Below, in pieces: positions 46 through 60,885 of a DNA stretch of 64,000 bases. The DNA is taken from NCBI GenBank assembly GCA_038841535.1, contig JAWBTQ010000001.1:1-64000 (forward strand). Reading direction: 5' to 3'. Source of the DNA: Sulfolobales archaeon (GTDB taxonomy: Archaea; Thermoproteota; Thermoprotei_A; Sulfolobales; NBVN01). Position numbers and translations under genes: made by a program. The stretch's first letter is position 1; each line of letters opens with the position of its first letter. The notes under the pieces were generated by a model. That model had not been told where the DNA came from, searched no databases, and saw only the letters and a program-made list of their open reading frames with translations.

Positions 46-313
46 GGGGTTCAGCTCTGATATAGGTTTGTATTTGTTGGTTTCGTTGCCTCATCTCTTT
101 TCCCCTGCATCAGTCTTGGGTCTGCACCACCCTTAGGGGCTTTCAGGGGCACCCCTAGACCCCCACATCTTGAGTATCTCGGGGAGAGCCCCTAGGGAGC
201 TCTCAACCCCTCATCGAACTATCCCCACACACTACTACACATAGAGTACTTAAGAGTTTCCATCCACATAAACAAATATGAAGAGATGTGAAACCCGAAA
301 CAGTTGCTTTAGG
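46..313 (-). mobile_element. Miniature IS607/tnpB-derived non-autonomous element (promoter + omegaRNA-like scaffold), copy 1, family A
   Basis: Reverse complement is nearly identical to 30124-30391. Left end GCCTAAAGCAACTGTTTCGGGTTTC, TATA-like GAAACTCTTAAGTA, right end GAGCTGAACCCC; no ORF. Confidence 0.8.
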
Positions 314-28622: not shown

Positions 28623-29846
28623 TTAGGTGCTAATGAATTTCTTAACTATCATACTGAATTCTTCTCTTGTGACTAGACCTTTTTTTAGCGTAGAGTAGAA
28701 CTTTGTTTCTAGTAAGATCTTTACTAAGTCCTCTACACTCATCCTGCTTGGGTCGACCCCGATCTCCTTTAGAACCTCGACTACGTTGGACTTACCCGAC
28801 TTCTTCCCTAGTACTATCTCTATTCCTCCCTTTCTACCTACGAGTTCGGGTAGTATTGGGAATACCTCAGTTGGTCTTACTTCTCTAGCTTGAATCCACC
28901 AGTCAGCGATCATTCCGGATTCGACCTTGAAGGGAGACTCCCCAACTACGGGTTTATGGGGGGGTAGCTTAATGCTTGAGAATTGCTCGACTAGCTTAGA
29001 TAGTTCGTACAGCTTACCGAGTTTCACGTTAGTTCTTACTCCCAGTAGTAGCTCTAATGCTAGTACAGTCTCCTCGAGGGCAGCATTACCAGCTCTCTCA
29101 CCGATACCGTTGACGGTTACGTGAACGGCTGACGCACCTGAGGCTACAGCAGCTAGTGCATTAGCTACAGCTAGACCGAAGTCGTTGTGTGGGTGGACTT
29201 CTATAGGCTTCTTCGTGAGGGACTTCACCTGCTTAGTCAAGTACTCCATAGCGAACGGGCTGGCTACTCCGAAGGTATCCGCGATAGTGAGAGAATCCAT
29301 GAAGTCCTGCACCGAGTCTATCACCTTCTTTAGGAACCCGTAGTCAGCTCTCGTCGAGTCTATTGCGAGGAGAGTAACGAAGAGTCCGTGTTTCTTGGCG
29401 TACTCAGCTGCCTCAATAACCATTCTGATAGCTTTGTCCTCCGGAATACTGTATCCATACTCTATGATGTGCTTACTAGAAGGAAGCTCCATCACGACCC
29501 CAGGTGCTTCAGCCTTAATCACTAGGTCTACGTCTTGCTTTAAACACCTTGAGAAAGCCATTACTCTCGCTCTGAGTCCCAGCTTAGCGATCTCCTTAAT
29601 GGCCTCGAAATCGTCTTGCGAAACCATGGGCATTCCAGCCTCGATCCTGTCCACACCTGCCTCGTCGAGAGCTACGGCTATCTTGACTTTCTCATCTCTT
29701 CTAAACACTACACCCGCCTGCTGCTCGCCGTCTCGCAGCGTGGTATCGTGTATAACCACTTTTTCGGGTAGCTCGAATCTCCTCCTAACCTCTTCATCGA
29801 AGTTAAGTGGGCTAACAAACCAGAACTTAGAGGACCACCTATACAA
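28623..29846 (-). CDS. Homocitrate/isopropylmalate synthase family (DRE-TIM), no regulatory domain
   Basis: DTTLRDGEQ, HPHNDFGLA, NGIGERAGNA, LGKKSG. Confidence 0.88.
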   Translation of the reverse strand: MYRWSSKFWFVSPLNFDEEVRRRFELPEKVVIHDTTLRDGEQQAGVVFRRDEKVKIAVALDEAGVDRIEAGMPMVSQDDFEAIKEIAKLGLRARVMAFSRCLKQDVDLVIKAEAPGVVMELPSSKHIIEYGYSIPEDKAIRMVIEAAEYAKKHGLFVTLLAIDSTRADYGFLKKVIDSVQDFMDSLTIADTFGVASPFAMEYLTKQVKSLTKKPIEVHPHNDFGLAVANALAAVASGASAVHVTVNGIGERAGNAALEETVLALELLLGVRTNVKLGKLYELSKLVEQFSSIKLPPHKPVVGESPFKVESGMIADWWIQAREVRPTEVFPILPELVGRKGGIEIVLGKKSGKSNVVEVLKEIGVDPSRMSVEDLVKILLETKFYSTLKKGLVTREEFSMIVKKFIST

Positions 29847-30123
29847 AACACTCCACCAAAACTATAATTGTAGAAAAGGCATAAGTATACACGTTAAAGC
29901 CACTAATTGAGTCGCAACACATGTCTGTATTCACGTACCATCGAAGTCTGTCTCAGTGTTATACCACTAAATTAACCTTCTAGTAGCTATGGTCTATTAA
30001 GGAGCTAATTTAGTCCCTCTTACAAGTTTGAGGATATAGATGAGACCGCTGAAATCTTCGGCATCTATCAACACATTAGATCGCCTCAAGATACCTTTTC
30101 TATGTAATATTGTGTAATATATG

Positions 30124-30391
30124 CCTAAAGCAACTGTTTCGGGTTTCACATCTCTTCATATTTGTTTATGTGGATGGAAACTCTTAAGTACTCTATGTGT
30201 AGTAGTGTGTGGGGATAGTTCGATGAGGGGTTGAGAGCTCCCTAGGGGCTCTCCCCGAGATACTCAAGATGTGGGGTGCCAGGGGTTTCCCCGAACGCCC
30301 CTAAGGGTGGTGCAGACCCAAGACTGATGCAGGGGAAAAGAGATGAGGCAATGAAACCAACAAATACAAACCTATATCAGAGCTGAACCCC
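30124..30391 (+). mobile_element. Miniature IS607/tnpB-derived element, copy 2, family A
   Basis: Inverted near-identical copy of 46-313, with the same ends, promoter and hairpins. Confidence 0.8.
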
Positions 30392-30592
30392 TCTCATCGA
30401 TCCCAGCTCGCACTCTCCTATCGGAGTAATCTATATAAGTAGGGAACCTACTGTAATGGAAATGAGGTTTAAGAAAGTCTTGGTTATGGATATGTGGAGA
30501 CACCCATCATTAATGATAGAAAAAGTTAGAGATCTGTCTTGGGAGTCGAGAAAGCTTTTATGCGTACGTGGAATTACAGGCTGGCGTAGACG

Positions 30593-30989
30593 TATGTCCG
30601 AGAAACCTACTGTGGCTTTAGTTCTCCTGCTTGTTGGGGGAACACTTATAGTTTTAGCGGGAGCTATCGGGTTATTAGTGAGTATAGAGCTCGGTATTTT
30701 AGGGAACGGGGCCGGAGTAATGCATCAATTAGTTACTCTCACATTCGGAGTACTACCTGTGTCATTCGGGGCTTTGGTTATAGTAGGAGCAGTCGTGGCA
30801 AACAGCAGTGAACTAAGTAGAGTAAAAGCAGGAGCGACATTAGGATTAGTATTCGGCACGTTGAGCCTCTTAGTAATGAGAGGTACAGGTATATATCCCC
30901 GACTACTTCTCGCAGGTCTATTGCTCTCTGTAGTCGGAGGTATAGTAGGTCTCATGTGGAAGCCTTCTCTACATCAGCAACAAGCATGA
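30593..30989 (+). CDS. Hypothetical membrane protein
   Basis: MSEKPT start, about four transmembrane segments. Confidence 0.7.
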
Positions 30990-31192
30990 TTCACCATTAC
31001 TTAACCTAGGGCAAGTGTCGCAAGCACGAGTAGTAAACCAAGTTGTTAGAAAAATAGTTGTGAATGTGTCTAGAACTCACTAAGTGCGTGAGATGTCTTT
31101 TCTCTTGACTAAGTGTAACCGATAGGTAAATACGTCTCTAGCAGTTAAATCTCTCAGCTTACAGTAGATAGCGGTTGCTGAAGCAAGTAGCT

Positions 31193-31900
31193 TTAGTGCT
31201 CTATGAGGAGGCGACCAAAGCTTAACCTATCTCTAATACCCAAAGTTCTAAGGCTTAGCCATATAGACACCGCATTGCTGGGTACTACTGGGATCTGTAG
31301 TTCTCTCTAGTACTTCGATTACTTCTAGGGTTCTAAAGTTCGTACAGTTGTTGAAGACTCCATCTACTGTTGGTCCAGCTTCTCTAGCGACTTCTCTGGC
31401 TAGCCTATACGATACCCAAGCAGGCTGCCTCCCTATCTTCGTGTTCTTACTATCCCGAGTCCCGAATTTTAACCACAACAAACCCGCCGCTCTCAAGAAA
31501 CGTCTTCTCTTCGACATTTATTTCCTCTATGTATGGAGCAGCTACCTTCCTTACCCCAGGAACGTTGAATGCTACAATTACTGCTTGCTTTGTCGTCAAT
31601 GTTTCTACGCCTATCCTGCTCCTCCTTCCCTCCGCAACTTCTCCTCCCACTCAACTCATTCTAGGAAAGACCCCTAAGTACAGTCATAAACTATTACGCT
31701 GACTTCAGCAGTAGTAAGCTCTTCGGCGGCTCTAACAGCTTCAGAAGCCAAATACCTGAGGGCACTCGTGGCCACCTCGATTAACTTAACTCTCAACGCG
31801 TGAACACTGACTCCCTCAGGAGCCATCCTCCAGAACTCGGCTCCATCGTGGTGTTAAACGACGGGACTATGAGCCCTATCCTACACCTCCACCCATACAT
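31193..31900 (-). pseudogene. Maleate cis-trans isomerase / arylmalonate decarboxylase (Asp/Glu racemase family) pseudogene
   Basis: MYGWRCRIGLIVPSFNTTMEP / EFWRMAPEGVSVH...VYDCT* / APYIEEIN / NCTNFRT are spread over different frames with internal stops. Confidence 0.85.
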
Positions 31901-32242
31901 AGGGAAATCCAAAGAAGTCGCGTAGTAAGGTTTAAAGCTACAAGTTCCTGAGAACCTTACCTTTTCTGGAGGTATCAGTTATGTAGTAATTCAAGCACTT
32001 ACGAGCTTTCAATGAATTCAGTTGAGTTACATGGGGGTTTGTAAAAGTCCACGTATTTACTTAAGTCTTTGAGAGGTTCCAGTGAAGTCCTGGTCAACGC
32101 GTTTCATGCCGCACCTAGAACTTCGCTAGCTAAACCTTATGATAGTATGTGGTAACAAGTAGTGTTCGCGTCCCCGCTTTACTCCCGTAAACAGCTAATG
32201 TGCTTATTATTAGCAAGTACTAAGATGAAGAGGGTACGCTTA

Positions 32243-33646
32243 GTGACCACTAAGGGTATTACACTTGGTGTTGAGGGACTAAGTGAGCTCATCGGAGTAG
32301 TCGAAAGTCCTTATGTCTTGCTTGTTGCCGGCAACCCCGGTGCCGGGAAGACAACGCTTGCTTCCACGATTTGCTATAAAAACGCTCTATCCGGTAAAAG
32401 GTGTCTCTATATAACATTCTATGAACAGAAAGAGAAGTTATTTAAGTACATGTCGAACCTAGGTCTGGACCTCGCAGATGCGGAATCCAAAGGGTTACTG
32501 AGGTTTACTAGGCTTTCGATCCCATCAAGTATCGATGCTTTCATTGAGGTCTTTACTTCGTTGTTGTCGGAGGAGCGATACGATGTTATAGTGATCGACT
32601 CGATTAATCCACTACTCGAGAGTTTTGGACCTCAAAGCGGTAGGGCCTGGCTCACTAACTTCTTCTACAACATAGCGCAAACTATTCAAGGATTTCTGAT
32701 ACTAGTAAGCGAGCTTCCTCACGGTTCTGAGACGACGGCGTCTGGGGTACTCGAATTTATAACTGATGCCATCGTGGTGTTGAAGCAGAAAATCGAGGAT
32801 AGGTTCTTAGTTAGATTTATGGAGATCAGGAAAGCCAGGGGGTCAAGTATATCTCTAGCAGAAGTACCGTTCTCGATTAATGCGGGTGAGGGTATCCGTG
32901 TCTGGGTCCCTCCGGTACTAAGTGAGGTATCTCCAGAAAGAGAGCCAGTAGAGCTAGTGTGCGACCTTTTAAGGAAAGCGTGGGGGAACATTAGGAAAGG
33001 GCAAGTTATCAACATATTCTATCCCCCGGACTGTAGACACCCTGCCATGGCTTTCCCAATACTTCTACCAGCTCTGATCTCTAGGCTCAAAACGTTAGTC
33101 ATTAGCTACAGGTATTCACCGCAAACCCTCGAGGACACCCTTCTCGCATCCCTTATTAGTCGTGGAGTGAGTACAGACAATATAAGAAACTTACTTAGAA
33201 AGTATGTTAAAGTAGTAAGCATTAATCCGTTTAGCTATAGCACTAGCCAGCTCGCTATCAAGGAGATGGAATTAATAAACAGTGAGAGTCCTGATGTAGT
33301 AATATTTCATGGACCTGAGATAGCGAGAGCAGCATCTGATTTAAATACGTACGTGAGAGAACTGTTCAACGAGACTAATTACTTAAAGAATAGGGGCATA
33401 CTCGTCGCGAGGTTAATAAGCTACATAGATGAAACTACCTACAGATTAGAGTCGAGCATGGCTGATATCGTTATGAAGCTTGACTACGAAGTTTTGAACG
33501 GTAAGCCGGTGCTGACTGTATACCTTTGGAGTAAGGGCGGGGACCCACACATCGTATCGTTAAACGAGCTAGAGAAGTGCGTTCTAGAGGCTTACGCCAC
33601 CATTAAAGTAGCAGATAACTCCTCGCAGAGCCCCGGAAGAGCTTAG
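32243..33646 (+). CDS. KaiC/RAD55-like ATPase, two domains, second degenerate
   Basis: GNPGAGKT, VIDS, EFITD and KARG in domain 1; no Walker A in domain 2. Start uncertain. Confidence 0.88.
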   Translation: MTTKGITLGVEGLSELIGVVESPYVLLVAGNPGAGKTTLASTICYKNALSGKRCLYITFYEQKEKLFKYMSNLGLDLADAESKGLLRFTRLSIPSSIDAFIEVFTSLLSEERYDVIVIDSINPLLESFGPQSGRAWLTNFFYNIAQTIQGFLILVSELPHGSETTASGVLEFITDAIVVLKQKIEDRFLVRFMEIRKARGSSISLAEVPFSINAGEGIRVWVPPVLSEVSPEREPVELVCDLLRKAWGNIRKGQVINIFYPPDCRHPAMAFPILLPALISRLKTLVISYRYSPQTLEDTLLASLISRGVSTDNIRNLLRKYVKVVSINPFSYSTSQLAIKEMELINSESPDVVIFHGPEIARAASDLNTYVRELFNETNYLKNRGILVARLISYIDETTYRLESSMADIVMKLDYEVLNGKPVLTVYLWSKGGDPHIVSLNELEKCVLEAYATIKVADNSSQSPGRA

Positions 33647-33748
33647 TACGAAAGTTGAGCTCATACTTTCTCTAACTGTGACTCAGACCTTCGGAGGAGG
33701 GTAGAGCTTGAGCTTAACTCCTTATTACAGTGCTTTACTAGTAAGTTT

Positions 33749-34393
33749 TTGATATCGGGGTTGAATGAGGGCATTGAGGCACCTAACTGCGCTAGATGTA
33801 GACTTAAGTCCTGCTACAAGAACCCTGAGACACCTAAACCGAGTTTTTGTCCTATGATACGTTATCGGGGTCTAGTTGAGCGTAGTATGAGTATGTATAG
33901 TGATGAAGTGAGGAGAGTCCATAGAGCTGCTTCTCTAGTAGAAAGAGAGGGCTACTGTGTTTGGCCACGGCTCCGCGAGGTCGTGGAGTTTGCCCGCAAG
34001 CTTGACGTAGAGAGGCTCGGGGTGGCGTTCTGTATCGGGTTAAGTAGTGAAGCCGAGTACGTTGTTAACTACCTCGAGAGTAGAGGATTCAAGGTATACT
34101 CAGTTTGCTGTAAATGCGGTGGTGTGGACAAGACGTGGATGGAGTTGAGGGAAGAAGATAAGCTAACTCCCGGGTCACACGAGTCCATGTGTAACCCAGT
34201 AGTTCAAGCAGAAATTCTAAACTTTGTAGGTACAGAGCTGAACATAGTCCTAGGGCTTTGCGTAGGTCACGACACGCTGTTCATAAAGTACTCAAAAGCA
34301 CCAGTAACATACCTAGCAGTTAAGGATATAGTAACAGGACACAATCCCCTAGCAGTCATTTACGTTAGCAACTACTTTAAGTTGAGGCTGTAA
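33749..34393 (+). CDS. DUF1847 metal-binding protein
   Basis: RLREVVEFA, LGVAFCIGL, VCCKCG, MCNPVVQA, GLCVGHD. Confidence 0.88.
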   Translation: MISGLNEGIEAPNCARCRLKSCYKNPETPKPSFCPMIRYRGLVERSMSMYSDEVRRVHRAASLVEREGYCVWPRLREVVEFARKLDVERLGVAFCIGLSSEAEYVVNYLESRGFKVYSVCCKCGGVDKTWMELREEDKLTPGSHESMCNPVVQAEILNFVGTELNIVLGLCVGHDTLFIKYSKAPVTYLAVKDIVTGHNPLAVIYVSNYFKLRL

Positions 34394-34652
34394 GGGTGGG
34401 AACTCGCTATACAGCACCATAGACCACTATCTCTTTTAAAAATCCTGCCGTAGTGTGAAGTAGTCTAGAAGTCCGAGTAAAGTTATCTAGAGCAATGTCA
34501 CTTAAATTCTACATGTAAAGAATGTATGAGCACGAATTACAGACTACAGACTTCGAAATCAAAGCTTACTTTATAACTGCGTCACACTAAAACGGTCTAT
34601 AGAGGTTTAACTTGTCTCTACTTTTCGTGATTCGCTGAAGTTTTAAGTAGAG

Positions 34653-35612
34653 CTAGTTGTGGAAGTCCCTGATGATAAAATCTTCGTTTCCGTAAGTAAC
34701 TATGCGGATTTCTCCCTCTTTTCTCAGCTTTTCTATTAATGCCAGCGGGTTCTCAACGGTTCTCTCTAAAGCTTTAACTGCGTAACTAAGTCTTAATGGA
34801 TGTACTGAGACAAGGTTTAACAGCCACATCTCAGGGTCTCCGTAAACTCTGTACCCGGAGGGCTCTGGGAGATTTAGTAGTTCCACCCTATCCTCACCGA
34901 GTGTTTTAGTAAATATCTCATATGCCTCTACTATCTTATTCAGTTGTGGAGGTCTAGCGTAATCCTCGGCGGGAGGTCTCACTGGTACCGCTATGTAGGC
35001 CTTTACAGGGTTGATCTTCTTAATGTAACTCGAGACTTGCTCTAGCTCTTCCGCGTTCGTGTTAAATCCCTCTATGAGCATAGTCTCAGTCACAAGCCTC
35101 CCCTTAAAGCTCTTCGCGAACTCCTCTATTCCAGCCAGAACGTTCTCTAGCTTTAAATTAGGATGCGGCCTGTTCACTACTCTCCAGGTTCTACAGAGTA
35201 CACTGTCAATCTTGATTGACACCAAGTCCGCATAAGCTATATCCACTCTGGCTTCCTCTAGATGGAGCAGGGACGAGTTCGTAATTACTGCTACAGGCTT
35301 ACTAGTTACTTCCTTTATTCCACCGATAATCTCCCCAATACGCATATCGAGCAGTGGCTCTCCGTCCGGAACGAAGGTAACGTAGTCTACTTCATTAGTG
35401 AATCTATCGATAAACGTGCGTACTTCGTTAACGACGTGCCTTACCTCGAAGAAGGGTCTTCTCTCTATAGTTAGGTCTGTAGTCCTCCCCAGCTGGCAGT
35501 ATATACAGGAATAGCTGCAGGTCTTATAGGGAACGTTGTTTACTCCTAAGCTAATGCCTAATCTCCTAGAGCGGACAGGTCCAAAGACATACTTTAATCT
35601 CCGGAAATTCAC
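34653..35612 (-). CDS. Radical SAM Fe-S oxidoreductase (COG0731-like)
   Basis: FGPVRSRRLGISLG, CSYSCIYC, DGEP. Confidence 0.9.
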   Translation of the reverse strand: MNFRRLKYVFGPVRSRRLGISLGVNNVPYKTCSYSCIYCQLGRTTDLTIERRPFFEVRHVVNEVRTFIDRFTNEVDYVTFVPDGEPLLDMRIGEIIGGIKEVTSKPVAVITNSSLLHLEEARVDIAYADLVSIKIDSVLCRTWRVVNRPHPNLKLENVLAGIEEFAKSFKGRLVTETMLIEGFNTNAEELEQVSSYIKKINPVKAYIAVPVRPPAEDYARPPQLNKIVEAYEIFTKTLGEDRVELLNLPEPSGYRVYGDPEMWLLNLVSVHPLRLSYAVKALERTVENPLALIEKLRKEGEIRIVTYGNEDFIIRDFHN

Positions 35613-36014
35613 GAAGAATTCTCACCCGATACTTACATGTACTCTAGGACCAGTTCTACTAAACATGCTACAGATTTATCCGCAAGCTCCTCGGCGTATT
35701 TCCCAGCACTTATCAACCTGAGAGTCCTGTATGCGGTGTGAGCACGTAATACGCTTGAGGCTGGTCCTAAAGGTCTCTCAGTAAGCATCCTGAGGCTCTC
35801 CCAATTAATCTATTTTAGCTATTATACTTAAGCAACAATCTCGGTTCCACTCTGGTAGGCAAGTCGTTAAAGCTATACGTGCTCAAGCGGTGTTCTTAAC
35901 TCCTTTAGACGCATTGAGTCTCTAAAGTTTACGGAATCGCGCATAGATGTTTTACTTCAAAGAGCTACCAAGGGCTGTCGGCATTATGAAGTTACTGAGG
36001 GTTGAGTAAAGTCT

Positions 36015-37058
36015 CTACTTTCCTTTATACCCCATAAGCTTCTTTTCCCAAGTTCTCCACGCTCTATAGAGCTCGTCTTCAACGTATACGTCGCCGAGTT
36101 TTTCTATGAACCCGTTCTCTCTATTCACTACAACTAGGCTCTCAGATCTATCTCCTACGTAGCCTATTACACTAGCTTCTATACCAGCTTTTTTCAATAT
36201 TTCAACTGCTTCTTCAGCTGCTTGAGGCGGGACTGTAGCTATGAGTGTCCCAGAACTTATGAGCTTCATCGGATCGAGCCTCAGGGCCGACACTATAGCC
36301 AGAGTTTCTTCCCCTACACTCACTTTCTCCTCTTGAACGTACAGGGTCTTACCAGATGCGTAAGCTATCTCAGCAAGCCCACCGAGTAATCCACCTTCAG
36401 TTGGATCGTGCATTGAGGTAACTAGTCCGGCTTCAGCAAGAAGTAGAGCTTCTCTAACAACACTCACTCTCCTAATGAACTCGATACCTCGCTGAATAAC
36501 GCTTCTAGGAACACCTAAATCTAGGAGGACCTCTCGAAAGTCTGAAGATAGTATGGCAGTACCTTCGATAGCAGCTGTCTTAGTCATGATTATAGCGTCA
36601 CCTACTCTAGCGCCTCCAGTAGTTACGTATCTACCCTTCTCAGCTATTCCTATAGCAGTCATCGATATCAGGGGTCTAGAGAGGCCTGGTGTAACCTCTG
36701 AGTGCCCTCCGATAATAGCTACACCGACTTCCTTAGCTGCTTTGTCTATCTGGCTAGTTATCTCGTCTACTAACTCCTCAGTAGTATTCTCAGGCAAGTA
36801 GAGAACAGAGAGAAGCCATCGAGGCTTTACTCCCCTTACCGCGATATCATTGCAGGAAATATGAACAGCTAGCCAGCCAAGGAACTCAACAGCTCCTGTA
36901 ATAGGGTCTACGTGTGTTACTAAAACCCGCCCACCACCGATGTCAACGATAGCGGCGTCTTCACCAATTGAGGGACCGACGAGGACGGAAGGATCCCTAA
37001 CACCGACTCTACTAATAACGTACTTCAACAGCATCCTAGGCGGTAGTTTTCCAGCCAC
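36015..37058 (-). CDS. AIR synthase-related (HypE/PurM-like) protein
   Basis: GKLP, GEDAA, DPITG, CNDIA, GGHSE, MHDPTEGG. Confidence 0.9.
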   Translation of the reverse strand: MAGKLPPRMLLKYVISRVGVRDPSVLVGPSIGEDAAIVDIGGGRVLVTHVDPITGAVEFLGWLAVHISCNDIAVRGVKPRWLLSVLYLPENTTEELVDEITSQIDKAAKEVGVAIIGGHSEVTPGLSRPLISMTAIGIAEKGRYVTTGGARVGDAIIMTKTAAIEGTAILSSDFREVLLDLGVPRSVIQRGIEFIRRVSVVREALLLAEAGLVTSMHDPTEGGLLGGLAEIAYASGKTLYVQEEKVSVGEETLAIVSALRLDPMKLISSGTLIATVPPQAAEEAVEILKKAGIEASVIGYVGDRSESLVVVNRENGFIEKLGDVYVEDELYRAWRTWEKKLMGYKGK

Positions 37059-37177
37059 ACTTAAACACCGAGTAAGGACGGTGTTATAAGAAAAAGAGCT
37101 CGCTGAACTGTACCAGAATAAGAAAAAGAGTACTTAAATCAACCGCTACCGCACATATCGATTAACAAGAGTCCGGG

Positions 37178-37488
37178 CCTCTCGCAACTGTTTGTGTTTC
37201 TTATCGGTTCATATCGGTTGGTGCTATTCCTCCTACGATTAATGCGTAAACCTCTTTTCCGCGGTCTAGCGGAAACGTTCATAAGTATCTCTACATAGGT
37301 TAGTGAGTGGAGACTCCCCGATGAGGGGTTGAGAGCTCCCTAGGGGCTCTCCCCGAGATACTCAAGATGCGGGGCGCCCGTGGTCGCCCTAAACCCCCTA
37401 AGCCCTATGAAGACCCGAGCGGAGTGCGGGGGAACCAGGATAATGCAATGAATTCAACCAATATAAACTAACATAAGAGCTGAACCCC
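37178..37488 (+). mobile_element. Miniature IS607/tnpB-derived element, copy 3, family A (longer left arm)
   Basis: GCCTCTCGCAACTGTTTG left end, GAAACGTTCATAAGTA promoter, the same GATGAGGGGTTGAGAGC hairpin, GAGCTGAACCCC right end. Confidence 0.78.
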
Positions 37489-37551
37489 AAAGAGCTACCT
37501 TAGCTGATACCCGACGCTACTTGATGTCTCAAAGAGCTACGCATACTCAGC

Positions 37552-38754
37552 TTAAACTACCTGCTTCAGTGTTGAGTCCACCTCATCAGAGAACTCTTCT
37601 TGGTACGTAATTATCGCTCTATCTCCAGGGTTTAAAGTCATTCCTCTCGCTAGTGGGTAGGCAATCCAGGCATCACCCGACCTAACTGCTAGCACACTCC
37701 CGCCGTACTTCCTTAAGTGCTGACCCAGCTCGGTTATGTTCAGCTGCTTTGTGATTGTGACAGTTCTAACCCTCTCCCCCAGGCTCTCGAATACATTGCT
37801 GAAGAGCTCTCTATAGTCCTTGGGGAACTCTTCTTGAAGGCTCGGTATGCTGCCTATGGTAGTACTGGCGTCAGCTATGTCCTCGAGTTCCTTTAAGAGA
37901 GTAGCTAACCCTATAAAGGTATCTGGGTCTATAGAGCCAGCAGTATTCTTTAGTAAGTCCATGGTCTCCATATGCTTCCAGTCTATGTATATCTCAAGAT
38001 CGTTTATCTCCTCCTTTAGCTCTGGAGTGTGCTCTACTAGTACGTAGTGAGCTAGGTCTAGCATCAGAACAGTACAGTCCTTAATGTTCACTAAGCTCTT
38101 AACTACGTCCTCTAGCTCTCTAACACCGATGATCTCCAACCTGTACTCTACACCGTAGTCGTTAAGTAGGTGTAGAACGTTCTCTTTAAATCCCCTTAAG
38201 TACATCAAGGAGCCTTTTTTAATCACCTCGGTTTGCTTAGGCATGAACCTGTACTCACCGCCTTCAATTACTGCTAGGACGTCCACTGGGTACTTATCCG
38301 TTAAGTCTAGTACTTTAAAGTCTTCCTTAGCCGGTAGCCTAGCAACGACTTCTCCGTCTGCGTAGTGTATAACCTGGTTGTAGCTAATCCCGGGAGACCT
38401 ACCGACTAAGAGTGTATAGACTATGTCTTTCACCGAGTCCGAGATCGTGTCTACCGAAGAACCGTAGTAAAACGAGAGTAAGCTAGCGTACCCTCCTTTC
38501 CTAGACTTCCCGAAAGCCATTGCGTTGTGCATCACGAAGTGACCTACGCTCTCGCTGACGAGTCTGTCGAGGTCGAGTATCTTCATAGCTAGTTCGTAGT
38601 CTCTCGCGAAGTAGGCATAGAAGGCTAGATCTATAGCTATGTTCGTCATCTTCCAGATACCTTCGAGTACGTTTCTAACCGTGTCAGGTCTGTACCTGAC
38701 GACAGGAGGACTCCGGTGGAATCTTCTGTGTACTTCGGGAGTGAGTCTGGACAA
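37552..38754 (-). CDS. PhoU/TrkA-C domain protein
   Basis: Two PhoU-like helical repeats (IDLAFYA, MLDLAHY, LEDIADA) alternating with TrkA-C-like segments. Confidence 0.78.
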   Translation of the reverse strand: MSRLTPEVHRRFHRSPPVVRYRPDTVRNVLEGIWKMTNIAIDLAFYAYFARDYELAMKILDLDRLVSESVGHFVMHNAMAFGKSRKGGYASLLSFYYGSSVDTISDSVKDIVYTLLVGRSPGISYNQVIHYADGEVVARLPAKEDFKVLDLTDKYPVDVLAVIEGGEYRFMPKQTEVIKKGSLMYLRGFKENVLHLLNDYGVEYRLEIIGVRELEDVVKSLVNIKDCTVLMLDLAHYVLVEHTPELKEEINDLEIYIDWKHMETMDLLKNTAGSIDPDTFIGLATLLKELEDIADASTTIGSIPSLQEEFPKDYRELFSNVFESLGERVRTVTITKQLNITELGQHLRKYGGSVLAVRSGDAWIAYPLARGMTLNPGDRAIITYQEEFSDEVDSTLKQVV

Positions 38755-38863
38755 TACACCATCCTCATTAATAACTAGTGTTACAGGTTTTAAACGTAGT
38801 GAGTGAGCTTATTTAACTATTCACTTACTCGATAGAAGGAGTAGGTGGAGGAAAATTGCCAGG

Positions 38864-40000
38864 TTGAGAGAATTCATAGTATCTCTGGTTACGCTGGCGC
38901 TCATCGAGGTTTTCGCCGGGCTATCACTAAAGTTCAATGTCGAGCTACTTGTCGCATACTCTGTCGTACTGATCCTAATACCGGGGCTCATGGACTTAAG
39001 GGGGGATGTTTACGGTGCTATAGGTTACCGCTTCACTAAAGGGCTTCACTTAGGCCTCACTCAACCGAAGTTACTGAATAGGTTCAACTTAATTAACGCT
39101 TCGACAGGCTACGTAAACTCGATTGTAGTGACGTTCCTCCTGTGCTTAATCGGTGTGGGGCTATCTCTAGTGAGTAAGTTGAGCATGCCGGACTTCCTAT
39201 CCCTAATCTTCATAGCCTCATTCTCAACTGTCTCAGTATTCGTTGTACTGACACCAGTTATACTGGCTGTAATCGCCTACATGTTTAAGCTCGGTCACGA
39301 CCCCTCACCCTTCGTGGCAACGGTTGTTACAGGTATCGGAGACGTTATGACTCCTGTAGTCTTGATAGGTGTTGCCTACATGCACGAGCTGTTCCCCTAC
39401 TTCCTCAAAGCTCTATTCGTACTGGCCTCCCTAGGTTTGACGGTAGCACTAACAGCATACATGGTTAGAGTCGGAGAGTTAAAGAACCTCATCGAGAACC
39501 TCGTTTCGTCGACACTAGCGTCTACTGGGAGTAGTCTCGGAGGCTTCTACCTAGCTCTGTCGGTGGGTTTCATCGCCGAGAACCCGGAGATTCTGGGAGT
39601 AATACCAGCCTTTAACGCAGTAATAGGGGCCGCAATGGGCTACCTCAGCAACTCCCTTAACGTAGACTTACACATAGGTACAGACAGATATAGGAATACT
39701 TACTACAGAAACTCTGTTGCGGGACTTATGGCGACACACGCATCAGTACTAACGGCGTTAGCTGCTGTCACTATCTTCTCCAAAAGCGCTCTATCGAGGG
39801 CTCTAACCATCGCCCTCGGTGTAGCTCTATCCTGCTTAATACTGTATTTGGTATCAACTCTAATAACGTACTTACTGACAGTGGTATCGTTCCACCACGG
39901 CTGGGACCCTGATAACTTAGTCTTTCCAGTAATGACTACGTTTGTAGACCTCATGGGGCCTGTAATACTCACTGTTATAGCCATCCACCTACTGCCCTGA
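38864..40000 (+). CDS. MgtE/SLC41-family divalent cation transporter
   Basis: IPGLMDLRGDV, GHDP..VTGIGD, GWDPDNLVFPVMTTFVD. Confidence 0.88.
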   Translation: MREFIVSLVTLALIEVFAGLSLKFNVELLVAYSVVLILIPGLMDLRGDVYGAIGYRFTKGLHLGLTQPKLLNRFNLINASTGYVNSIVVTFLLCLIGVGLSLVSKLSMPDFLSLIFIASFSTVSVFVVLTPVILAVIAYMFKLGHDPSPFVATVVTGIGDVMTPVVLIGVAYMHELFPYFLKALFVLASLGLTVALTAYMVRVGELKNLIENLVSSTLASTGSSLGGFYLALSVGFIAENPEILGVIPAFNAVIGAAMGYLSNSLNVDLHIGTDRYRNTYYRNSVAGLMATHASVLTALAAVTIFSKSALSRALTIALGVALSCLILYLVSTLITYLLTVVSFHHGWDPDNLVFPVMTTFVDLMGPVILTVIAIHLLP

Positions 40001-40253
40001 AGCTGAGGCAGGTTACTAAGATCACTTGATCTCTTCAACTAGAACTATAGAGAGTATGTACTTAAGGAGCTTCCTAGATCAAAGGACACTCGATCTATTA
40101 TGTGTATTCCTCTCTAAACCAACTATACAAAAAGTTGCTGAACGTGCTTTCCGCAATATCTTTCCACAATAATAGGTTAGTCGTTAAAGCAAAGGATGTA
40201 TGAGGTGCTATGTAATCTGTGGGCAGGGATTTAGTAGAGAAGAGAACTTGGGT

Positions 40254-40325
40254 TTACTCGAAGTTCGCCTTGAGAACTCTAATAACGTTTTCGTATGCTA
40301 CTTTTCTAAGGTCCCCTTCTGAGAA
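40254..40325 (-). pseudogene. C-terminal remnant of an amidohydrolase/membrane dipeptidase (M19-like) abutting the tnpB right end
   Basis: FSEGDLRKVAYENVIRVLKANFE* resembles the S-E-x-D/E-I-x-K-I-x-x-x-N-x-x-R-V terminal helix of M19-type amidohydrolases. Confidence 0.55.
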
Positions 40326-41421
40326 CCGTTTCCAGCCCCAAGTTTTTGTAGGTTTTTCTAGGACGGGTTGTGCCTCAGCCCTGCGGTTCACTGTGGCTAC
40401 TAGCCACTCTACGCGGGGGTCATGGGCACCGTTCGAGCCCAACGGCACGGGGCTCACATCCAGTTTTAGGGCTATGTTCCATGCTCCTATTACGTCTCTG
40501 TCGTGTGTGAATCCGCATTTGCCGCATTTTACGGGTCTGGGGCTCCAGCCTCTCCTCTGGGCATTGCCCGTCATTGGAGACAGGCTGGAGCCGTACAGGA
40601 CACTTCCTGGATGTGTTCCTCGGATCTACGAACTCTACTCTTACACCGTGTTCTACTGCTTTCTCTACTAACTGCTTCTGGATCCCTCTGATGACTGATT
40701 GTTTGAGTCTATGGGCATCTAGTGGTCTTAATCTTAATCCATTCTTCTCCAGTGCTCTATCCTGGAACCTCTTGGGAAGCTTCTCCAGAACAACAACAGC
40801 TCTTTCCTCCTTAGCTACCTTAACCAGGAAAGATGCAACCTTGCTCCTCAAGTCTCTTTTGGCATGCTCCTCTCGTAGCTTCCTCAAAGCTATCCTGAGA
40901 GACCTCGTGTTGTTTCCGTACCTCTCCTGGATAGCTCTTCTCCTGTAGGCATAGCCTAGAACTATTTTGCTGTGGTTGGTTACTATTGTTATTGCTTTGT
41001 TGCCGGGGAGTATGAAGAGAGTTACGTTGTTCTCGTTAATATCCACACCGATAACCTTGCTGTACTTCTCCCCTTGCTCAGCACTCCTGGAGAACACTAC
41101 GTAGAGCTTGAGCTTCCCATTCTCAAGCTTCCACCTACAAGAGCTTCTGAGAACCCACCCAGTGTTGTAGTACATGTAGAACTGCTTGTGGAGAAGCAAA
41201 GGTATGTTCACCCACCTCACGTGGGTTTCTACCGAGACTCCCTGGAGAGCAAGCTTCCACATCTGGTTATCGCAACCGACATTCCACTGCTTAACCTCCG
41301 GCTTGTCCGTGAAAGCAAGACCCTTCTTCAGCTTGAGGAAGGACTTCAGCCTAGCAGATGCATCACGTACTGCTTCGATTTCTGTTAACATAATAGCCCT
41401 GGTCCATGCCTTCCCAACCAA
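40326..41421 (-). pseudogene. tnpB: TnpB (RNA-guided RuvC nuclease), 5'-truncated and frameshifted, with 3' omegaRNA/right-end region
   Basis: RuvC motifs VIGVDINE, VVLEKL and HDRDVIGAWNI. Zinc finger broken (TGT CCT GTA C GGC; restoring 2 nt gives CPVCG). N-terminus appears truncated. Confidence 0.9.
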
Positions 41422-41749
41422 CTCTAGTTCGAGAGAAGCCTCTAGGAAAGGTTTGTGGAAGCGTTAGTGGGTGGTCGAGAGAGTAAATAGAGTTGAGAGG
41501 GTGTCTACAAAGCATAAATGAGTTGAAGTTTTCTACTCACTCAAACTCAAGCCTAGGTACTTCTTAAACAGCGTTTTAAGGATTCTGTATACTTCTTCGC
41601 ATCCCCGCCCAGCGTTCTGCGCTTCGAGAGCATGCCGCTTAGGCGAATAGTCTCGACCCTAGCTTCCTCGAAGAGCTGAAAAAGCTTGTACGTCAGAGAA
41701 GCCTCTCTAGACTCTGCTCTTTGAGGAGCTCTTTAGCAATTCCGGGCAG

Positions 41750-41991
41750 CCTTGAGTAGCTACTTCGGGTTTCATATCTTTTCGTATTGGTTGATGTGGA
41801 TTGAAACTCTTGTAAGTATCTCTATACGTAGTGATATGTGGAAGTAACTTGATGAAGAGTCGAGAGCCCCGTGCCGTTGGCTCGAAGAGTGCCACGACCT
41901 CCTCGTGAAGTGGCTGGTAGCCACCGTGAACCGCGGGCAAGAGGTACAACCCGTCCTAGAAAAACCTACAAAAACCTGGGGCGGGAAACGG
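41750..41991 (+). mobile_element. Chimeric miniature element, copy 5: family-A left end/promoter fused to the scaffold of the neighbouring tnpB
   Basis: GCCTTGAGTAGCTACTTCGGGTTTCATATC left end and GAAACTCTTGTAAGTA promoter; 41864-41991 aligns with the reverse complement of 40326-40455. Confidence 0.8.
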
Positions 41992-42150
41992 GGATTCCAT
42001 AGTACTCAAGGACCTAGGAGTAGTTAGATGTATTAAGGTGAGGTGTGGCAGTAGGACTCATATCGGGGGCAGCTAAGAGCGAAGATACTCTTCAACCCAG
42101 ATGAAGATAAACAGTATATCCCGTACTGTATGAGGTCTCCGAGGAGGCTT
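41990..42150 (+). pseudogene. Decayed internal fragment of a different archaeal TnpB-like gene
   Basis: GDSIVLKDLGVVRCIKVR / RAKILFNPDEDKQY / YEVSEEA across frames; resembles the wedge region of Thermoprotei TnpBs (recalled, not searched). Confidence 0.4.
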
Positions 42151-42249
42151 CTACGACAGATGTAGCTGGGAGAGATGGGCCGACGACACTTAGAGTGAGA
42201 TAAGCTGATGGAAACAGTCTTTGCTAAATCAAAAATATTTTTATATTTT

Positions 42250-43071
42250 TTATACTATTTCCAATAACTCATACGTCAATTCAGATGTCTTAGTTTCCAT
42301 CATGAAGTATACGCATAGTGTATACTCCTTATAATGAGACACCCATATATCTGCCTTAGTTATATTAGCAAAGTGTGGATTATTGGGGTTAGGTGTAAAC
42401 ACAAACTTATCGACGTTTAAGGTAGTGCTTCCGTATGATATTGAAGCTGATGATACATGAGTTAATGTACCTATTTCTGGAGGTGTATAAGGCCATAGTA
42501 TCATTGCAGCCAAGAATTGATGGGGGATGACGAAGAAGTTCATAAATAAGCCTACAGTCTCTGCTACGACGTATTCTGCCATATATGGAGGTATTTCTTT
42601 TCCATTGAACATTACCCTAGGCGTAATTCCAGTCTGTTTTGGAAGCCATATAATGACTGTTGTGTTACCGCTTTCTTCTTCAATTATAAATTCTATCCTC
42701 GTGTATTCCACTCCTCCTACTACTTCAACTCCCTTATTATGGTAATAGAAGATCTCTATCTTTAATTCATTGTCAACGCGGTCGTAATCCTTTAACCTCC
42801 ACTTCATATAACGTACTAAGTTTATGAATTCCTCAAAGGCCTCAATATACTTCTCTTCAGGTGGTGGTGTAGTTGTGTAGGGGGTATACGTAGTAGAAGT
42901 AAGTGGAGTAGTCATCGGTGTTGTTGCATGTGGAGAGGTAGGAGTTGTGTAGGGGGTATACGTAGTAGAAGTAGCTGGACCTCCAGGCTGTAAAGCTGAC
43001 ATTAAGCCATAGATTACAGCAACAGATACTATAGTTACTACAGCCACAACCAAAAATAAAGGTATTTTCAA
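42250..43071 (-). CDS. Membrane-anchored extracellular protein with Thr/Pro-rich linker (AT-rich, likely acquired)
   Basis: N-terminal TM helix, TSTTYTPYTT repeats, visibly AT-richer than its neighbours. Confidence 0.8.
   Translation of the reverse strand: MKIPLFLVVAVVTIVSVAVIYGLMSALQPGGPATSTTYTPYTTPTSPHATTPMTTPLTSTTYTPYTTTPPPEEKYIEAFEEFINLVRYMKWRLKDYDRVDNELKIEIFYYHNKGVEVVGGVEYTRIEFIIEEESGNTTVIIWLPKQTGITPRVMFNGKEIPPYMAEYVVAETVGLFMNFFVIPHQFLAAMILWPYTPPEIGTLTHVSSASISYGSTTLNVDKFVFTPNPNNPHFANITKADIWVSHYKEYTLCVYFMMETKTSELTYELLEIV
42871..42973. repeat. 31-bp direct repeat, period 72 bp, inside the CDS
   Basis: AGTTGTGTAGGGGGTATACGTAGTAGAAGTA at 42871 and 42943. Confidence 0.9.
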
Positions 43072-43654: not shown

Positions 43655-43732
43655 TGGCGGGCCCGCCGGGATTTGAACCCGGGACCACCGGCTTAGAAGG
43701 CCGGCACCCTATCCTGGCTGGGCCACGGGCCC
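43655..43732 (-). tRNA. tRNA-Arg(TCT), CCA encoded, no intron
   Basis: GGGCCCG acceptor stem, CCGGC-CTTCTAA-GCCGG anticodon arm, GGTTCAAATCC T-arm, 3' GCCA. Confidence 0.97.
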
Positions 43733-60240: not shown

Positions 60241-60529
60241 CCTTGTTTAACTGTTTCGGTTTTCATATCTGCTCATGTCTGTCGATATTGATCGAAACGT
60301 TTATAAGCACCTCATGGTGATATGCGTGGATGTACATAGATGAGGGGTCGAGAGCCACTCGATGATCTAGATGATGGCTCTCCCCGAGATACTCAAGATG
60401 TGGGGTGCTAGGGGTCACCCCGAACGCCCCCGAGCCCGATGAGAACCCGAGCGGAATGCGGGGGAAAGAGGACAAGGCAACGAAGTCAACCGATATAAAC
60501 CAAAATAAACCAAAACGAGAGCTGAACCC
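60241..60529 (+). mobile_element. Miniature IS607/tnpB-derived element, copy 4, family A (divergent)
   Basis: GCCTTGTTTAACTGTTTCGGTTTTC left end, GAAACGTTTATAAG promoter, GAGAGCCA/TGGCTCTC hairpin, GAGCTGAACCC right end. Confidence 0.78.
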
Positions 60530-60885
60530 AGTCGGTTCGGTTACCTAGAGGGTCTCCTGTTTACGTTCATGCTTACAGCCATTGCTGTAATGATCGCCGC
60601 CGCAATTGAATTGATGCTTGAGAATAGTAAAGATATAGTTGTTCAGGTAGAAAGAGGAAGCGGAGAGGAACGTTACCGCGATCGTTAATGGTTCTCCGGA
60701 TGCTCCAAATAAATTGCTCGAGACTTTAGATAAAGAGAACCTACTTGACTTAGTAGTGTAACTAGTGGGTTAGACTCCACTAGGAAATAGAGCTATCAGA
60801 ACGACTCTAAAAAGTGTGATTAGGTACTACACCACCCCCTACTCTCCACCGCTATGGTAACCGCCCGATGTTTCTACATATATAG

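What the first reader, a model, noticed from the sequence alone, without database searches (positions are those of the whole stretch)
30124..30391. Dispersed family of promoter-driven, protein-free omegaRNA-like cassettes (five copies in 64 kb)
Seen: five non-coding units (46-313 minus; 30124-30391; 37178-37488; 41750-41991; 60241-60529) share one layout. Each has a left boundary GCCT at fixed spacing from (C/T)AACTGTTT/TAGCTACTT, GTTTC-type subterminal motifs, a BRE/TATA (GAAAC-N-T(T/A)AAG(T/C)A), GATGA about 30-45 nt later, stacked hairpins, and a sharp right end followed by unrelated sequence. No target-site duplication is evident. Family-A copies have a CC dinucleotide at both ends. Established: IS607 serine transposases cross over in a 2-bp core with no TSD, and TnpB omegaRNA comes from the tnpB 3' end plus the flank beyond the right end. 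Inference: these are miniature IS607 derivatives that lost tnpA/tnpB but kept the promoter and scaffold, so each insertion makes a new guide-RNA gene. That amounts to a dispersed, transposition-written guide repertoire for a trans-acting TnpB or a nuclease-dead TnpB regulator.
Basis: partly seen in the sequence, partly recalled or inferred. Interest (0 to 1): 0.85.

Follow-up and report, generated by a model that had tools for sequence, protein, structure and literature searches.

The report
Protein-free miniature TnpB guide-RNA transposons
The five repeats are copies of a roughly 40-member family of tiny, gene-less transposons in a hot-spring archaeon that keep only the ends, the promoter and the guide-RNA part of a TnpB-carrying insertion sequence; this kind of element is already known in outline, so it is a well-documented new example rather than a new principle.

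Summary
The five units belong to a dispersed family. The genome (G000, 1.56 Mb) holds 35 full-length copies of 248-312 bp, 4 short forms of about 188 bp, and fragments. Together these make 0.87% of the assembly.

Each copy is an internal-deletion derivative of a tnpB-only insertion sequence. The intact parent lies at C19:1270-2765. A copy keeps four parts:
- the left end;
- the tnpB promoter (BRE/TATA);
- the first ~20 codons, which contain a conserved hairpin;
- the last ~130 nt (tnpB 3' end plus right end), fused directly to that hairpin. This is the nucleotide-conserved, structured block where TnpB omegaRNA scaffolds lie.

The ends behave as IS607-type ends. There are no inverted repeats. 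A CC dinucleotide sits at both junctions, and four empty sites in sister species show a 2-nt overlap. The genome has no Y1 transposase, but it has one complete tnpA(serine)-tnpB element with the same left-end motif.

Expression, TnpB binding and cleavage remain untested. Guides match only their own flanks, and copies show no orientation bias. This fits selfish homing or retention, not a regulatory repertoire.

Unit 41750-41991 is a chimera of two families.

Protein-free omegaRNA-bearing PATEs and IS607-related ~260-nt archaeal MITEs are already in print. I therefore rate this a new variant of a known kind.

The parts
30124..30391 (+). Miniature element u2 (family A, 268 bp), complete from CC core to CC core
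   Evidence: The same site is empty in G002 and G007, reading TATATG-CT-TCTCATCG.
30124..30125 (+). Left core dinucleotide CC. The flank before it ends in G (position -1) and T (position -2); the family consensus is AG.
   Evidence: C in 42 of 46 and 43 of 46 left ends; flank -1 is G in 41 of 46; flank -2 is A in 32 of 46.
30126..30175 (+). Left-end region with GCAACTGTTTCGGGTTTCA (GTTTC repeats), presumed TnpA(serine) binding region
   Evidence: the same CTGTTTCG motif sits at the left ends of complete tnpA-tnpB elements. Binding itself is inferred.
30176..30191 (+). BRE/TATA-like block GGAAACTCTTAAGTAC, which is the promoter of tnpB in full-length copies
   Evidence: it aligns with GAAAGATTATAAAC about 45 nt upstream of the tnpB 5' hairpin in three full-length copies. 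Promoter activity was not tested.
30219..30259 (+). Relic tnpB 5' end: GATGA, then a conserved hairpin (GGGG-TT-GAGAGC ... GCTCTC-CCCC) with GA/GA flanks that resemble a K-turn
   Evidence: (helices 1-2 are 86-91% paired). The K-turn reading comes from recall and was not tested.
30259..30260 (+). Deletion junction (…CCCCGAG|ATACTCAAGATGT…) joining the tnpB 5' part to the last ~45 codons
   Evidence: The same junction is present in most of the 35 long copies, in G002, G007 and G050, and in 20 metagenome stretches.
30263..30391 (+). Putative omegaRNA scaffold (CTCAAGATGTGGGG … GAGCTGAACCCC). It includes the relic tnpB stop codon TGA at 30352-30354.
   Evidence: this block is nucleotide-conserved at the 3' end of 44 tnpB genes; a helix shows covariation; every deletion form keeps it.
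30392..30411 (+). Flank that would serve as the guide if transcription runs through the right end
   Evidence: Inferred from TnpB biology (review passages). It has no second perfect match in the genome.
46..313 (-). Miniature element u1 (family A, 268 bp). It is the same locus as the end of contig C10.
   Evidence: The site is empty in G002, reading GGTGTG-TC-ATGCAT.
37178..37488 (+). Miniature element u3 (family A, 311 bp). It has a longer left end that keeps more of the parent's left-end interior; BRE/TATA lies at 37271-37287.
41750..41991 (+). Unit u4, a chimera. It has a family-A left end, promoter and 5' part (to about 41883), joined at GAGCC to a family-B right end that ends in AAACGG.
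   Evidence: family-A model positions 1-134 only. The 3' half is 86% identical to 40326-40455.
60241..60530 (+). Miniature element u5 (family A, 290 bp). BRE/TATA lies at 60293-60309. The right junction dinucleotide is CA instead of CC.
40326..41463 (-). Frameshifted family-B tnpB remnant with its right end (…GGAAACGG), the nearest relative of u4's 3' half
   Evidence: 74.5% identical to the intact C18 TnpB, in 2 pieces.

Best explanation
The units are non-autonomous, protein-free miniature derivatives of an IS607-like insertion sequence that carries only tnpB.

**Shown**
- One internal deletion removed almost all of tnpB.
- It left (i) the left end, with a CC core dinucleotide and GTTTC motifs; (ii) the tnpB promoter and first ~20 codons, which include a conserved hairpin; and (iii) the last ~130 nt of the element.
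- That last block is the structured, nucleotide-conserved region at the tnpB 3' end and right end, the position where TnpB omegaRNA scaffolds lie.

**Inferred**
- A serine-recombinase TnpA supplied in trans moves the copies through a 2-bp crossover at (A)G-CC-T sites.
- The retained promoter transcribes the scaffold and reads out through the right end, so each copy makes an omegaRNA whose guide is its own right flank.
- The intact, apparently nuclease-competent TnpB of the full-length copies loads these RNAs in trans.
- After excision it cuts the empty site (predicted TAM ending in AGCC), and recombination with a sister chromosome restores the copy.

On this reading the 'guide repertoire' is a by-product of selfish retention, not a host function.
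For: **Derivation**
- tnpB at C19:1310-2578(-) is followed by the repeat's 3' half at C19:1270-1402, and its left end is at about C19:2765.
- The unit's RYSRCG-coding stretch and relic stop codon match the tnpB 3' end.
- The promoter and 5' hairpin align with three full-length copies.

**IS607-type ends**
- No Y1 transposase was found.
- A serine TnpA with an N-terminal HTH lies directly upstream of tnpB on C18. It scores 212 bits on NF033518 against a cut-off of 110.
- The CTGTTTCG left-end motif is shared with that element.
- Four of four clean empty sites carry a 2-nt overlap and no longer duplication.
- Flank logo: AG before the CC core, T after the right end.

**Scaffold**
- Four different deletion forms all keep at least ~128 nt of the right end: the long form, the short form, family-B miniatures and the u4 chimera.
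- In the one IS607 system tested, excision needed only 60 bp of the right end (preprint 10.1101/2023.11.20.567912, passages).
- The kept block coincides with the stretch that stays nucleotide-conserved in 44 tnpB-linked right ends, down to 38-48% protein identity.
- Proposed structure: 89.6% of cells are paired, against 34-59% when partners are slid. In one helix, 6 of 8 pairs show changes on both sides.

**Partner protein**
- The C19 TnpB has an open frame of 423 aa. RuvC-I D, RuvC-III D and the CxxC pairs are conserved. The RuvC-II E aligns with solved TnpB/Cas12f chains.

**Copy balance**
- 35 long forms with a promoter stand against 4 short forms without one.
Against: - There are no RNA data. 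No RNA run holds the stretch, so transcription, read-through, processing and TnpB binding are all unshown.
- The covariation is modest outside one helix. Both variants of that helix also occur in tnpB-linked copies, so it may predate the miniatures.
- No autonomous family-A element was found. None of 48 relatives' loci carries a full adjacent tnpA; one has a weak 76-aa HTH match. All 9 tnpA loci examined carry B-like tnpB. In-trans mobilisation by a serine TnpA is therefore inferred from the ends alone.
- Three of the four empty sites read CT, TC or CT rather than CC. These come from species about 85% identical.
- The core is CC, whereas a review states that most IS607 elements end in GG (PMC13565253, passages).
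- No Rfam family, RAGATH-18 included, matches at threshold.
- Conservation of the BRE/TATA block among copies is only moderate (majority fraction 0.67).
Confidence: 0.6

Rival explanations
1. The copies are inert miniature transposons. On this view the 3' block and the promoter survive only because they belong to the sequence the transposase needs, or because the copies are young. Any RNA made has no role.
For: - There is no expression evidence.
- Guides match nothing except their own flank.
- Placement and orientation look random: 17 co-directional against 16 convergent.
- The covariation could be inherited from functional parents.
Against: - Copies diverge to about 70% identity yet keep the whole ~130-nt block, and four independent deletion forms stop at nearly the same point.
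- In the one tested IS607 system, 60 bp of the right end sufficed.
- Forms with a promoter outnumber forms without one, 35 to 4.
Confidence: 0.27
2. The copies are a domesticated guide repertoire. On this view they supply guides to a TnpB or a nuclease-dead TnpB that regulates host genes or defends against invaders.
For: - There are many promoter-bearing copies and an intact TnpB in trans.
- TnpB-derived regulators exist in bacteria (preprint 10.1101/2023.11.30.569447, passages).
Against: - None of the 52 guides has a second perfect site. The one apparent exception, the guide of u1, recurs only at the end of contig C10, which is the same locus assembled twice. The matches with up to 2 mismatches lack a GCC-type motif upstream.
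- There is no orientation bias.
- The TnpB keeps its catalytic motifs.
- The motif pattern has no match in viral contigs.
Confidence: 0.05
3. The copies are PATE-type elements of the IS200/IS605 family, moved as single strands by a Y1 (HUH) transposase.
For: - They are tnpB-only parents with no adjacent tnpA, as is common in IS605-type elements.
- PATEs carrying omegaRNA are described (preprint 10.1101/2023.03.14.532601, passages).
Against: - PF01797 has no match in the genome, which is 84% complete.
- The same dinucleotide sits at both junctions, and empty sites keep 2 nt.
- The left-end motif is shared with serine-TnpA elements.
- By eye I saw no long subterminal palindromes.
Confidence: 0.05
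4. The units are a family of structured small RNA genes, such as box C/D-like RNAs, unrelated to transposition.
For: - GATGA lies near the 5' end and CTGA near the 3' end.
- There is a weak Rfam hit to C/D sRNA sR53: 15.7 bits against a gathering score of 49, E = 0.2.
Against: - The hit is far below threshold.
- Both halves are homologous to tnpB.
- Sister species have empty sites.
- The copy number and sharp ends are typical of mobile DNA.
Confidence: 0.02

Closest known systems
PATEs of IS200/IS605 elements that carry an omegaRNA but no gene (Geobacillus stearothermophilus; Meers et al., preprint 10.1101/2023.03.14.532601; passages read)
   Same: Both are protein-free miniature elements with the parent's ends. 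Both encode the guide-RNA scaffold and must rely on TnpB and TnpA supplied in trans. Both are proposed to aid selfish retention.
   Different: - The ends here are IS607-like, with a 2-bp core and no palindromic hairpin ends, and no Y1 transposase is present.
- The host is an archaeon.
- The tnpB promoter is fused directly to the scaffold.
- There are about 40 copies in 1.56 Mb.
The ~260-nt MITEs of Staphylothermus marinus, related to its IS607-family one-ORF elements (Anderson et al. 2009, PMC2678158; passages read)
   Same: - Both hosts belong to the same broad group, inferred here from named TnpB relatives in Desulfurococcaceae and Ignisphaera MAGs.
- Both are about 260 nt long, and both have parents with tnpB only.
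- S. marinus has 14 copies, against 35 full-length ones here.
- Both are similar to the region upstream of the transposase-like ORF.
   Different: - That paper describes inverted repeats and gives no RNA or guide interpretation.
- Here the 3' half is shown to be the tnpB 3' end plus right end.
IS607-family tnpA(serine)-tnpB elements with omegaRNA, such as the Clostridium botulinum IStron (preprint 10.1101/2023.11.20.567912, passages; review PMC13565253, passages)
   Same: - Both have a core dinucleotide at both ends, no TSD and no TIR, and short subterminal motifs.
- In both, the TAM includes the core.
- In both, the scaffold overlaps the tnpB 3' end.
- Mismatched junction dinucleotides are tolerated.
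   Different: - The core here is CC with an AG preference upstream, not GG with TGGG, AGGAG or GAGGG.
- The family-A parent has no tnpA.
- There is no RAGATH-18 match.
- The units carry no gene at all.
TldR, nuclease-dead TnpB repressors with guide RNAs (preprint 10.1101/2023.11.30.569447, passages)
   Same: Both involve a TnpB-family protein using a transposon-derived guide RNA.
   Different: The TnpB here keeps its RuvC motifs. Guides do not point at other loci.

Membership tests
IS607 family (insertion sequences moved by a serine recombinase) | A TnpA with an N-terminal HTH plus a resolvase catalytic domain is encoded in the element | tested here: not met
   - The units carry no long ORF of their own: 31 of 35 overlap no ORF of 100 aa or more, and I took the four overlapping frames as spurious.
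- The family-A parent has tnpB only: none of 48 loci has a full tnpA alongside.
- One complete element exists in the genome on C18: NF033518 at 212 bits against a cut-off of 110, Pfam Resolvase plus HTH_17. It belongs to family B.
IS607 family (insertion sequences moved by a serine recombinase) | No terminal inverted repeats, no target-site duplication, and the same core dinucleotide at both junctions and once in the empty site | tested here: met
   - CC sits at the left junction in 42-43 of 46 copies and at the right junction in 43-44 of 52.
- Four of four clean empty sites keep exactly 2 nt, reading CT, TC, CC and CT.
- The core is CC, not the usual GG.
IS607 family (insertion sequences moved by a serine recombinase) | Short subterminal motifs shared with autonomous elements, serving as TnpA binding sites | tested here: inconclusive
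   - CTGTTTCG/GTTTC lies near the left end and GAAAC/GAAC near the right end. The same motif is present in C18 and in 9 tnpA-tnpB elements of G002 and G003.
- Binding was not tested.
TnpB omegaRNA (reRNA) gene | The scaffold is encoded by the tnpB 3' end plus the right end, and the guide is the flank beyond the right end | tested here: met
   The 3' ~130 nt of each unit is colinear with the 3' end of tnpB and its right end in C19, C3 and C9 and in 44 elements of relatives. This shows position only; guide use is inferred.
TnpB omegaRNA (reRNA) gene | Conserved secondary structure supported by compensatory changes | tested here: inconclusive
   - 89.6% of cells are paired, against 34-59% for slid controls.
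- Covariation score is 0.187, against 0.06-0.12 for slid controls.
- Only one helix varies strongly: 6 of 8 pairs change on both sides, for example CG in 18 copies against GC in 8.
- The same swap occurs in tnpB-linked copies.
TnpB omegaRNA (reRNA) gene | A transcript crosses the right end, is bound by TnpB, and guides cleavage | not testable with these tools
   No RNA run holds the stretch.
RAGATH-18-type IS607 reRNA and other curated RNA families (Rfam 15) | A match to the covariance model at the gathering score | tested here: not met
   In the window, only one tRNA reaches threshold. With permissive settings on 30100-30430, the best hit is a C/D sRNA model at 15.7 bits against 49.
PATE / IS200-IS605 (Y1 transposase) | A Y1 HUH transposase in the genome and subterminal palindromic hairpin ends | tested here: not met
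   PF01797 has no match in G000, which is 84% complete. The ends show a dinucleotide overlap instead.
MITE in the strict sense | Terminal inverted repeats and a target-site duplication made by a DDE transposase | tested here: not met
   I saw no TIR beyond the short GTTTC/GAAAC motifs, and no duplication beyond the 2-nt overlap. 'MITE-like' describes only the size and the lack of genes.
TldR-type nuclease-dead TnpB system | Loss of RuvC catalytic residues in the partner protein | tested here: not met
   The IDVN (RuvC-I) and GDRD (RuvC-III) motifs are conserved in in-frame homologues. The LED glutamate aligns with solved TnpB/Cas12f chains. The naming of these motifs comes from recall.

The most novel reading that the evidence does not exclude
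A hyperthermophile lineage carries an IS607-like clade with a non-canonical CC core and an AGCC-type TAM. Its main mode of spread would be a promoter-equipped, gene-less omegaRNA cassette rather than the tnpB gene itself. On this reading, one or a few TnpB genes service about 40 independently transcribed guide genes. The conserved 5' hairpin, with a K-turn-like base, would be an added RNA module, for example an L7Ae site, that stabilises or gates these trans-acting guides. That would make this a natural, minimal, thermostable 'one nuclease, many guide genes' system written by transposition.
Probability: 0.15. Interest if true: 0.7.

Novelty: new variant of a known kind. Interest (0 to 1): 0.5.

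Why it matters
- If the cassettes are transcribed and loaded by TnpB in trans, they extend the PATE/omegaRNA idea from Y1-type to serine-recombinase-type elements and to archaea.
- They would show how a guide-RNA gene with its own promoter can arise from a single deletion. That is a plausible small step toward stand-alone guide loci.
- They would point to a thermostable TnpB with an unusual, C-rich predicted TAM and a naturally trimmed ~130-nt scaffold.
- In practical terms, the family explains about 0.9% of this genome and many of its contig breaks. It should be masked or annotated as mobile DNA, not as novel RNA genes.

Tried and rejected
**Expression**
- The look-up of sequencing runs listed no RNA holder. 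All 13 holders are DNA contigs from hot-spring metagenomes.

**Population data**
- Read laying on 29000-43000 with four DNA runs gave contigs that stop inside the repeats. No listed piece has 31 letters on both sides of a cassette junction, and no clean empty-site joint for a cassette was listed. It therefore says nothing on recent mobility.

**Motif regex**
- A loose regex scan for end motifs gave hundreds of chance hits and was dropped in favour of profile searches.

**Empty sites**
- Most attempts failed because intergenic flanks diverge too much between species. In one search, only 1 of 8 G002/G007 copies gave a clean site. In one search, 1 of 13 did, and one further copy was an occupied orthologous site. 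I report only the four clean ones.

**Second targets of guides**
- Apart from the u1/C10 duplicate of one locus, no guide has a second perfect site; only chance-level hits with up to 2 mismatches turned up.

**Orientation or promoter-delivery bias**
- None was found.

**Collection scans**
- Viral contigs with the scaffold pattern: 0.

**Rfam**
- Nothing reached threshold. The C/D-box idea was rejected.

**Autonomous family-A parent with tnpA**
- Not found in 48 + 9 loci.

**Conservation by block**
- It did not single out the promoter.

**Literature**
- Searches for IS607-derived, omegaRNA-bearing miniature elements listed no paper that says this. I read passages only. Supplementary files were not seen and might hold such elements.

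- I did not use structure prediction, complex prediction, the search for homologous proteins or the search of protein representatives.
Full report
**What is there**

The five units exist as described. u1 and u2 are 97% identical. u3 and u5 align with them end to end at about 71-77% identity. The window is the start of contig C1 of a 1.56-Mb, 40-contig assembly that is 84% complete. Hot-spring metagenomes hold the stretch.

The units are part of a much larger family:
- u2 finds 47 places in the genome.
- A profile built from four units finds 60, of which 35 are full length at 248-312 bp.
- A profile of those 35 finds 69 pieces totalling 13,633 bp, or 0.87% of the assembly.
- Four further copies are short forms of about 188 bp, in which left-end positions 1-60 are joined directly to the last ~131 nt.
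- u1 and the end of contig C10 share the same flank and are one locus assembled twice.

**Where the units come from**

The 3' half of the unit lies on the 3' end of tnpB genes. At C19 an open 423-codon TnpB frame (1310-2578, minus strand) overlaps the repeat match at 1270-1402. The left-end match lies at about 2719-2765, giving a ~1.5-kb tnpB-only element. Pieces of further copies sit at contig edges on C3, C9, C35 and C19.

Within the unit, AGATACTCAAGATGTGGGG reads as the RYSRCG codons of the TnpB C-terminus, and a relic stop codon follows.

The 5' half aligns with the left end of three full-length copies. The alignment covers the terminal ~58 nt, then the BRE/TATA-like block, then the start region of tnpB with a conserved hairpin. 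In the full copies the BRE/TATA-like block reads GAAAGATTATAAAC and lies about 45 nt upstream of that hairpin.

The promoter is the tnpB promoter.

Most long copies share one junction, …GGCTCTCCCCGAG|ATACTCAAGATGT…. One diverged subfamily carries extra sequence there. The same junction occurs in G002, G007 and G050, the last being a different genus. It also occurs in 20 stretches of public metagenome contigs.

**Which transposase type**

PF01797 (Y1) has no match in the genome. PF00239 has two.
- One is an intact 215-225-aa frame on C18, directly upstream of an intact 424-aa tnpB.
- It has an N-terminal HTH and a resolvase domain. It passes NCBIfam 'IS607 family transposase' at 212.4 bits against a cut-off of 110.
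- The left end of that element carries the same GCAACTGTTTCG word as the units.
- The second match, on C6, is a decayed resolvase lying directly upstream of a family-A miniature copy.

This complete element belongs to a second family, B. Its right end finishes in …GGGAAACGG, and it has three miniature derivatives of its own on C1, C2 and C26.

Nine further tnpA-tnpB elements in G002 and G003 have left ends of the form GG|CTGTT… and right ends of the form …AAAC|GG or …AAAC|GC.

For family A:
- 46 left ends and 52 right ends give the consensus flank-A-G | CC-T…element…GAACC-CC | T-flank.
- Four sites that are occupied in one species and empty in a sister species all keep exactly two nucleotides between the flanks, reading CT, TC, CC and CT. 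None has a longer duplication.

This is the pattern expected of a serine-recombinase crossover in a 2-bp core. In the C. botulinum IS607 element the core dinucleotide sits at both ends and forms part of the TAM. Non-matching junction dinucleotides arise there when donor and target cores differ (preprint 10.1101/2023.11.20.567912, passages). The occasional CA, CT or TC at right junctions here fits that behaviour.

Two cautions apply:
- The core is CC, whereas a review states that most IS607 elements end in GG with G-rich TAMs (PMC13565253, passages).
- No family-A element with its own tnpA was found. None of 48 relatives' loci has one; one has a weak 76-aa HTH hit. All nine tnpA loci examined carry B-like tnpB at 31-41% identity. 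Mobilisation in trans is an inference.

**Is the 3' block a guide-RNA scaffold?**

There are three lines of evidence, none decisive.
1. *Nucleotide conservation.* In 44 tnpB-linked right ends from Ignisphaera, Desulfurococcaceae and other Thermoproteota MAGs, nucleotide conservation starts at CTCAAGATGTGGGG and runs to GAGCTGAACCCC. This holds even where the proteins are only 38-48% identical. The miniature copies keep this block almost exactly.
2. *Independent deletions.* Four deletion outcomes all keep about 128-145 nt of the right end: the long form, the short form, family-B miniatures and the u4 chimera. In the one IS607 system tested, 40 bp of the left end and 60 bp of the right end sufficed for excision.
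3. *Structure.* A consensus structure is 89.6% paired across 33 copies, against 34-59% when partners are slid. One helix has changes on both sides in 6 of 8 pairs. The same swap is seen in tnpB-linked copies, so it need not have arisen in the miniatures.

No Rfam family matches.

**Partner protein**

The C19 TnpB has an open frame. It matches solved TnpB and Cas12f chains over the RuvC-II, zinc-finger and RuvC-III region. It shares the IDVN and GDRD motifs and both CxxC pairs with its in-frame relatives. It looks nuclease-competent, not dead.

**What the guides point at**

- Of 52 right-end flanks, none has a second perfect 16-nt site in the genome apart from the duplicated u1/C10 locus. The hits with up to 2 mismatches lack a GCC-type motif upstream.
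- Of the 35 full copies, 31 overlap no ORF of 100 aa or more.
- The next gene downstream is co-directional in 17, convergent in 16 and absent in 2.
- Nothing suggests regulation or defence. The data fit the published role of TnpB in restoring an excised element at its donor site.

**Unit u4**

Its first 134 nt match family A: the left end with a CC core, the promoter and the 5' part. Its last 128 nt match family B, 86% identical to the right end of the frameshifted tnpB remnant 1.3 kb away. The join lies at a shared GAGCC word. It ends in GG, not CC, and no second copy was found.

**Spread**

- Matches occur in 9 of 31 relatives' genomes and in 9 of 41 genomes sampled from the family. G000 is included in both counts.
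- Full-length miniature copies were seen in G002, G007 and G050.
- Absence elsewhere means 'not found in those searched'.

**Known or new**

- Meers et al. state that PATEs 'often encode omegaRNAs' that must be used in trans (preprint, passages).
- The S. marinus genome paper reports 14 copies of a ~260-nt MITE related to the region upstream of its IS607-family one-ORF elements (PMC2678158, passages).
- My five literature searches listed no paper that joins the two ideas for IS607-type or archaeal elements. I read passages only and saw no supplements.
- I therefore rate this as a new variant of a known kind, with moderate interest.

**Limits**

- No RNA data are available.
- Structure support is modest.
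- The transposase for family A is inferred.
- The empty sites come from species about 85% identical.
- The K-turn reading of the hairpin base and the names of the catalytic motifs rest on recall, not on a test.

Noticed in passing
window 30219-30259; equivalent positions in the other long copies; full-length copies C19:~2450-2510(-) and L072, L073, L088-L092, L096 near 1510-1640: The base of the conserved 5' hairpin has the layout C-helix, 3-nt bulge, G-A, stem, G-A-G (for example CTC-NGT-GA-GGGG…CCCC-GA-GGG in 8 full-length relatives). From recall, this resembles a K-turn (L7Ae site). It sits at the start of the tnpB reading frame.
   Followed up: partly
window 40326-41600 (minus strand): This is a family-B tnpB remnant, frameshifted and lacking tnpA. 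One ~91%-alike contig in run X3 joins 40331 to 41595, so a related strain may lack this element. The joint is not at the canonical end, and the likeness is low.
   Followed up: partly
G000 C6:10700-11716: A decayed IS607 lies directly upstream of a family-A miniature copy. It consists of HTH and resolvase remains plus the start of a B-type tnpB. This looks like an insertion next to or into an older element.
   Followed up: partly
G000 C1:~128610-128800 (minus strand): The left end of a family-B miniature copy abuts a sequence that looks like the 3' end of a tRNA gene (GGGTTCAAATCCCACC…).
   Followed up: no
window 1-313 and G000 C10:43824-44033: The start of contig C1 and the end of contig C10 carry the same cassette and flank, so the two contigs probably adjoin. 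Several other contigs also end in family members (C3, C9, C17, C19, C35), so the repeats break the assembly.
   Followed up: partly
right junctions, e.g. window 60529-60530 (CA); C10:14802-14803 (CT); C6:21588-21589 (TC): The dinucleotide at the right junction varies in about 8-9 of 52 copies, while the left one is nearly always CC. This echoes the published asymmetry of IS607 integration products with non-matching cores.
   Followed up: partly
window 30079-30544: One contig of run X10 (depth 9) joins 30079 to 30544 with unknown content between. This may be a diverged strain with a different sequence at the u2 site.
   Followed up: no
window 43655-43732 (minus strand): tRNA-Arg(TCT). It is the only Rfam or ARAGORN hit in the window.
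   Followed up: no
G003 (L132, L135, L137, L139-L143): A sister species carries at least 8 intact tnpA(serine)-tnpB elements with GG or GC cores. These would be a possible source of transposase for comparative tests.
   Followed up: partly
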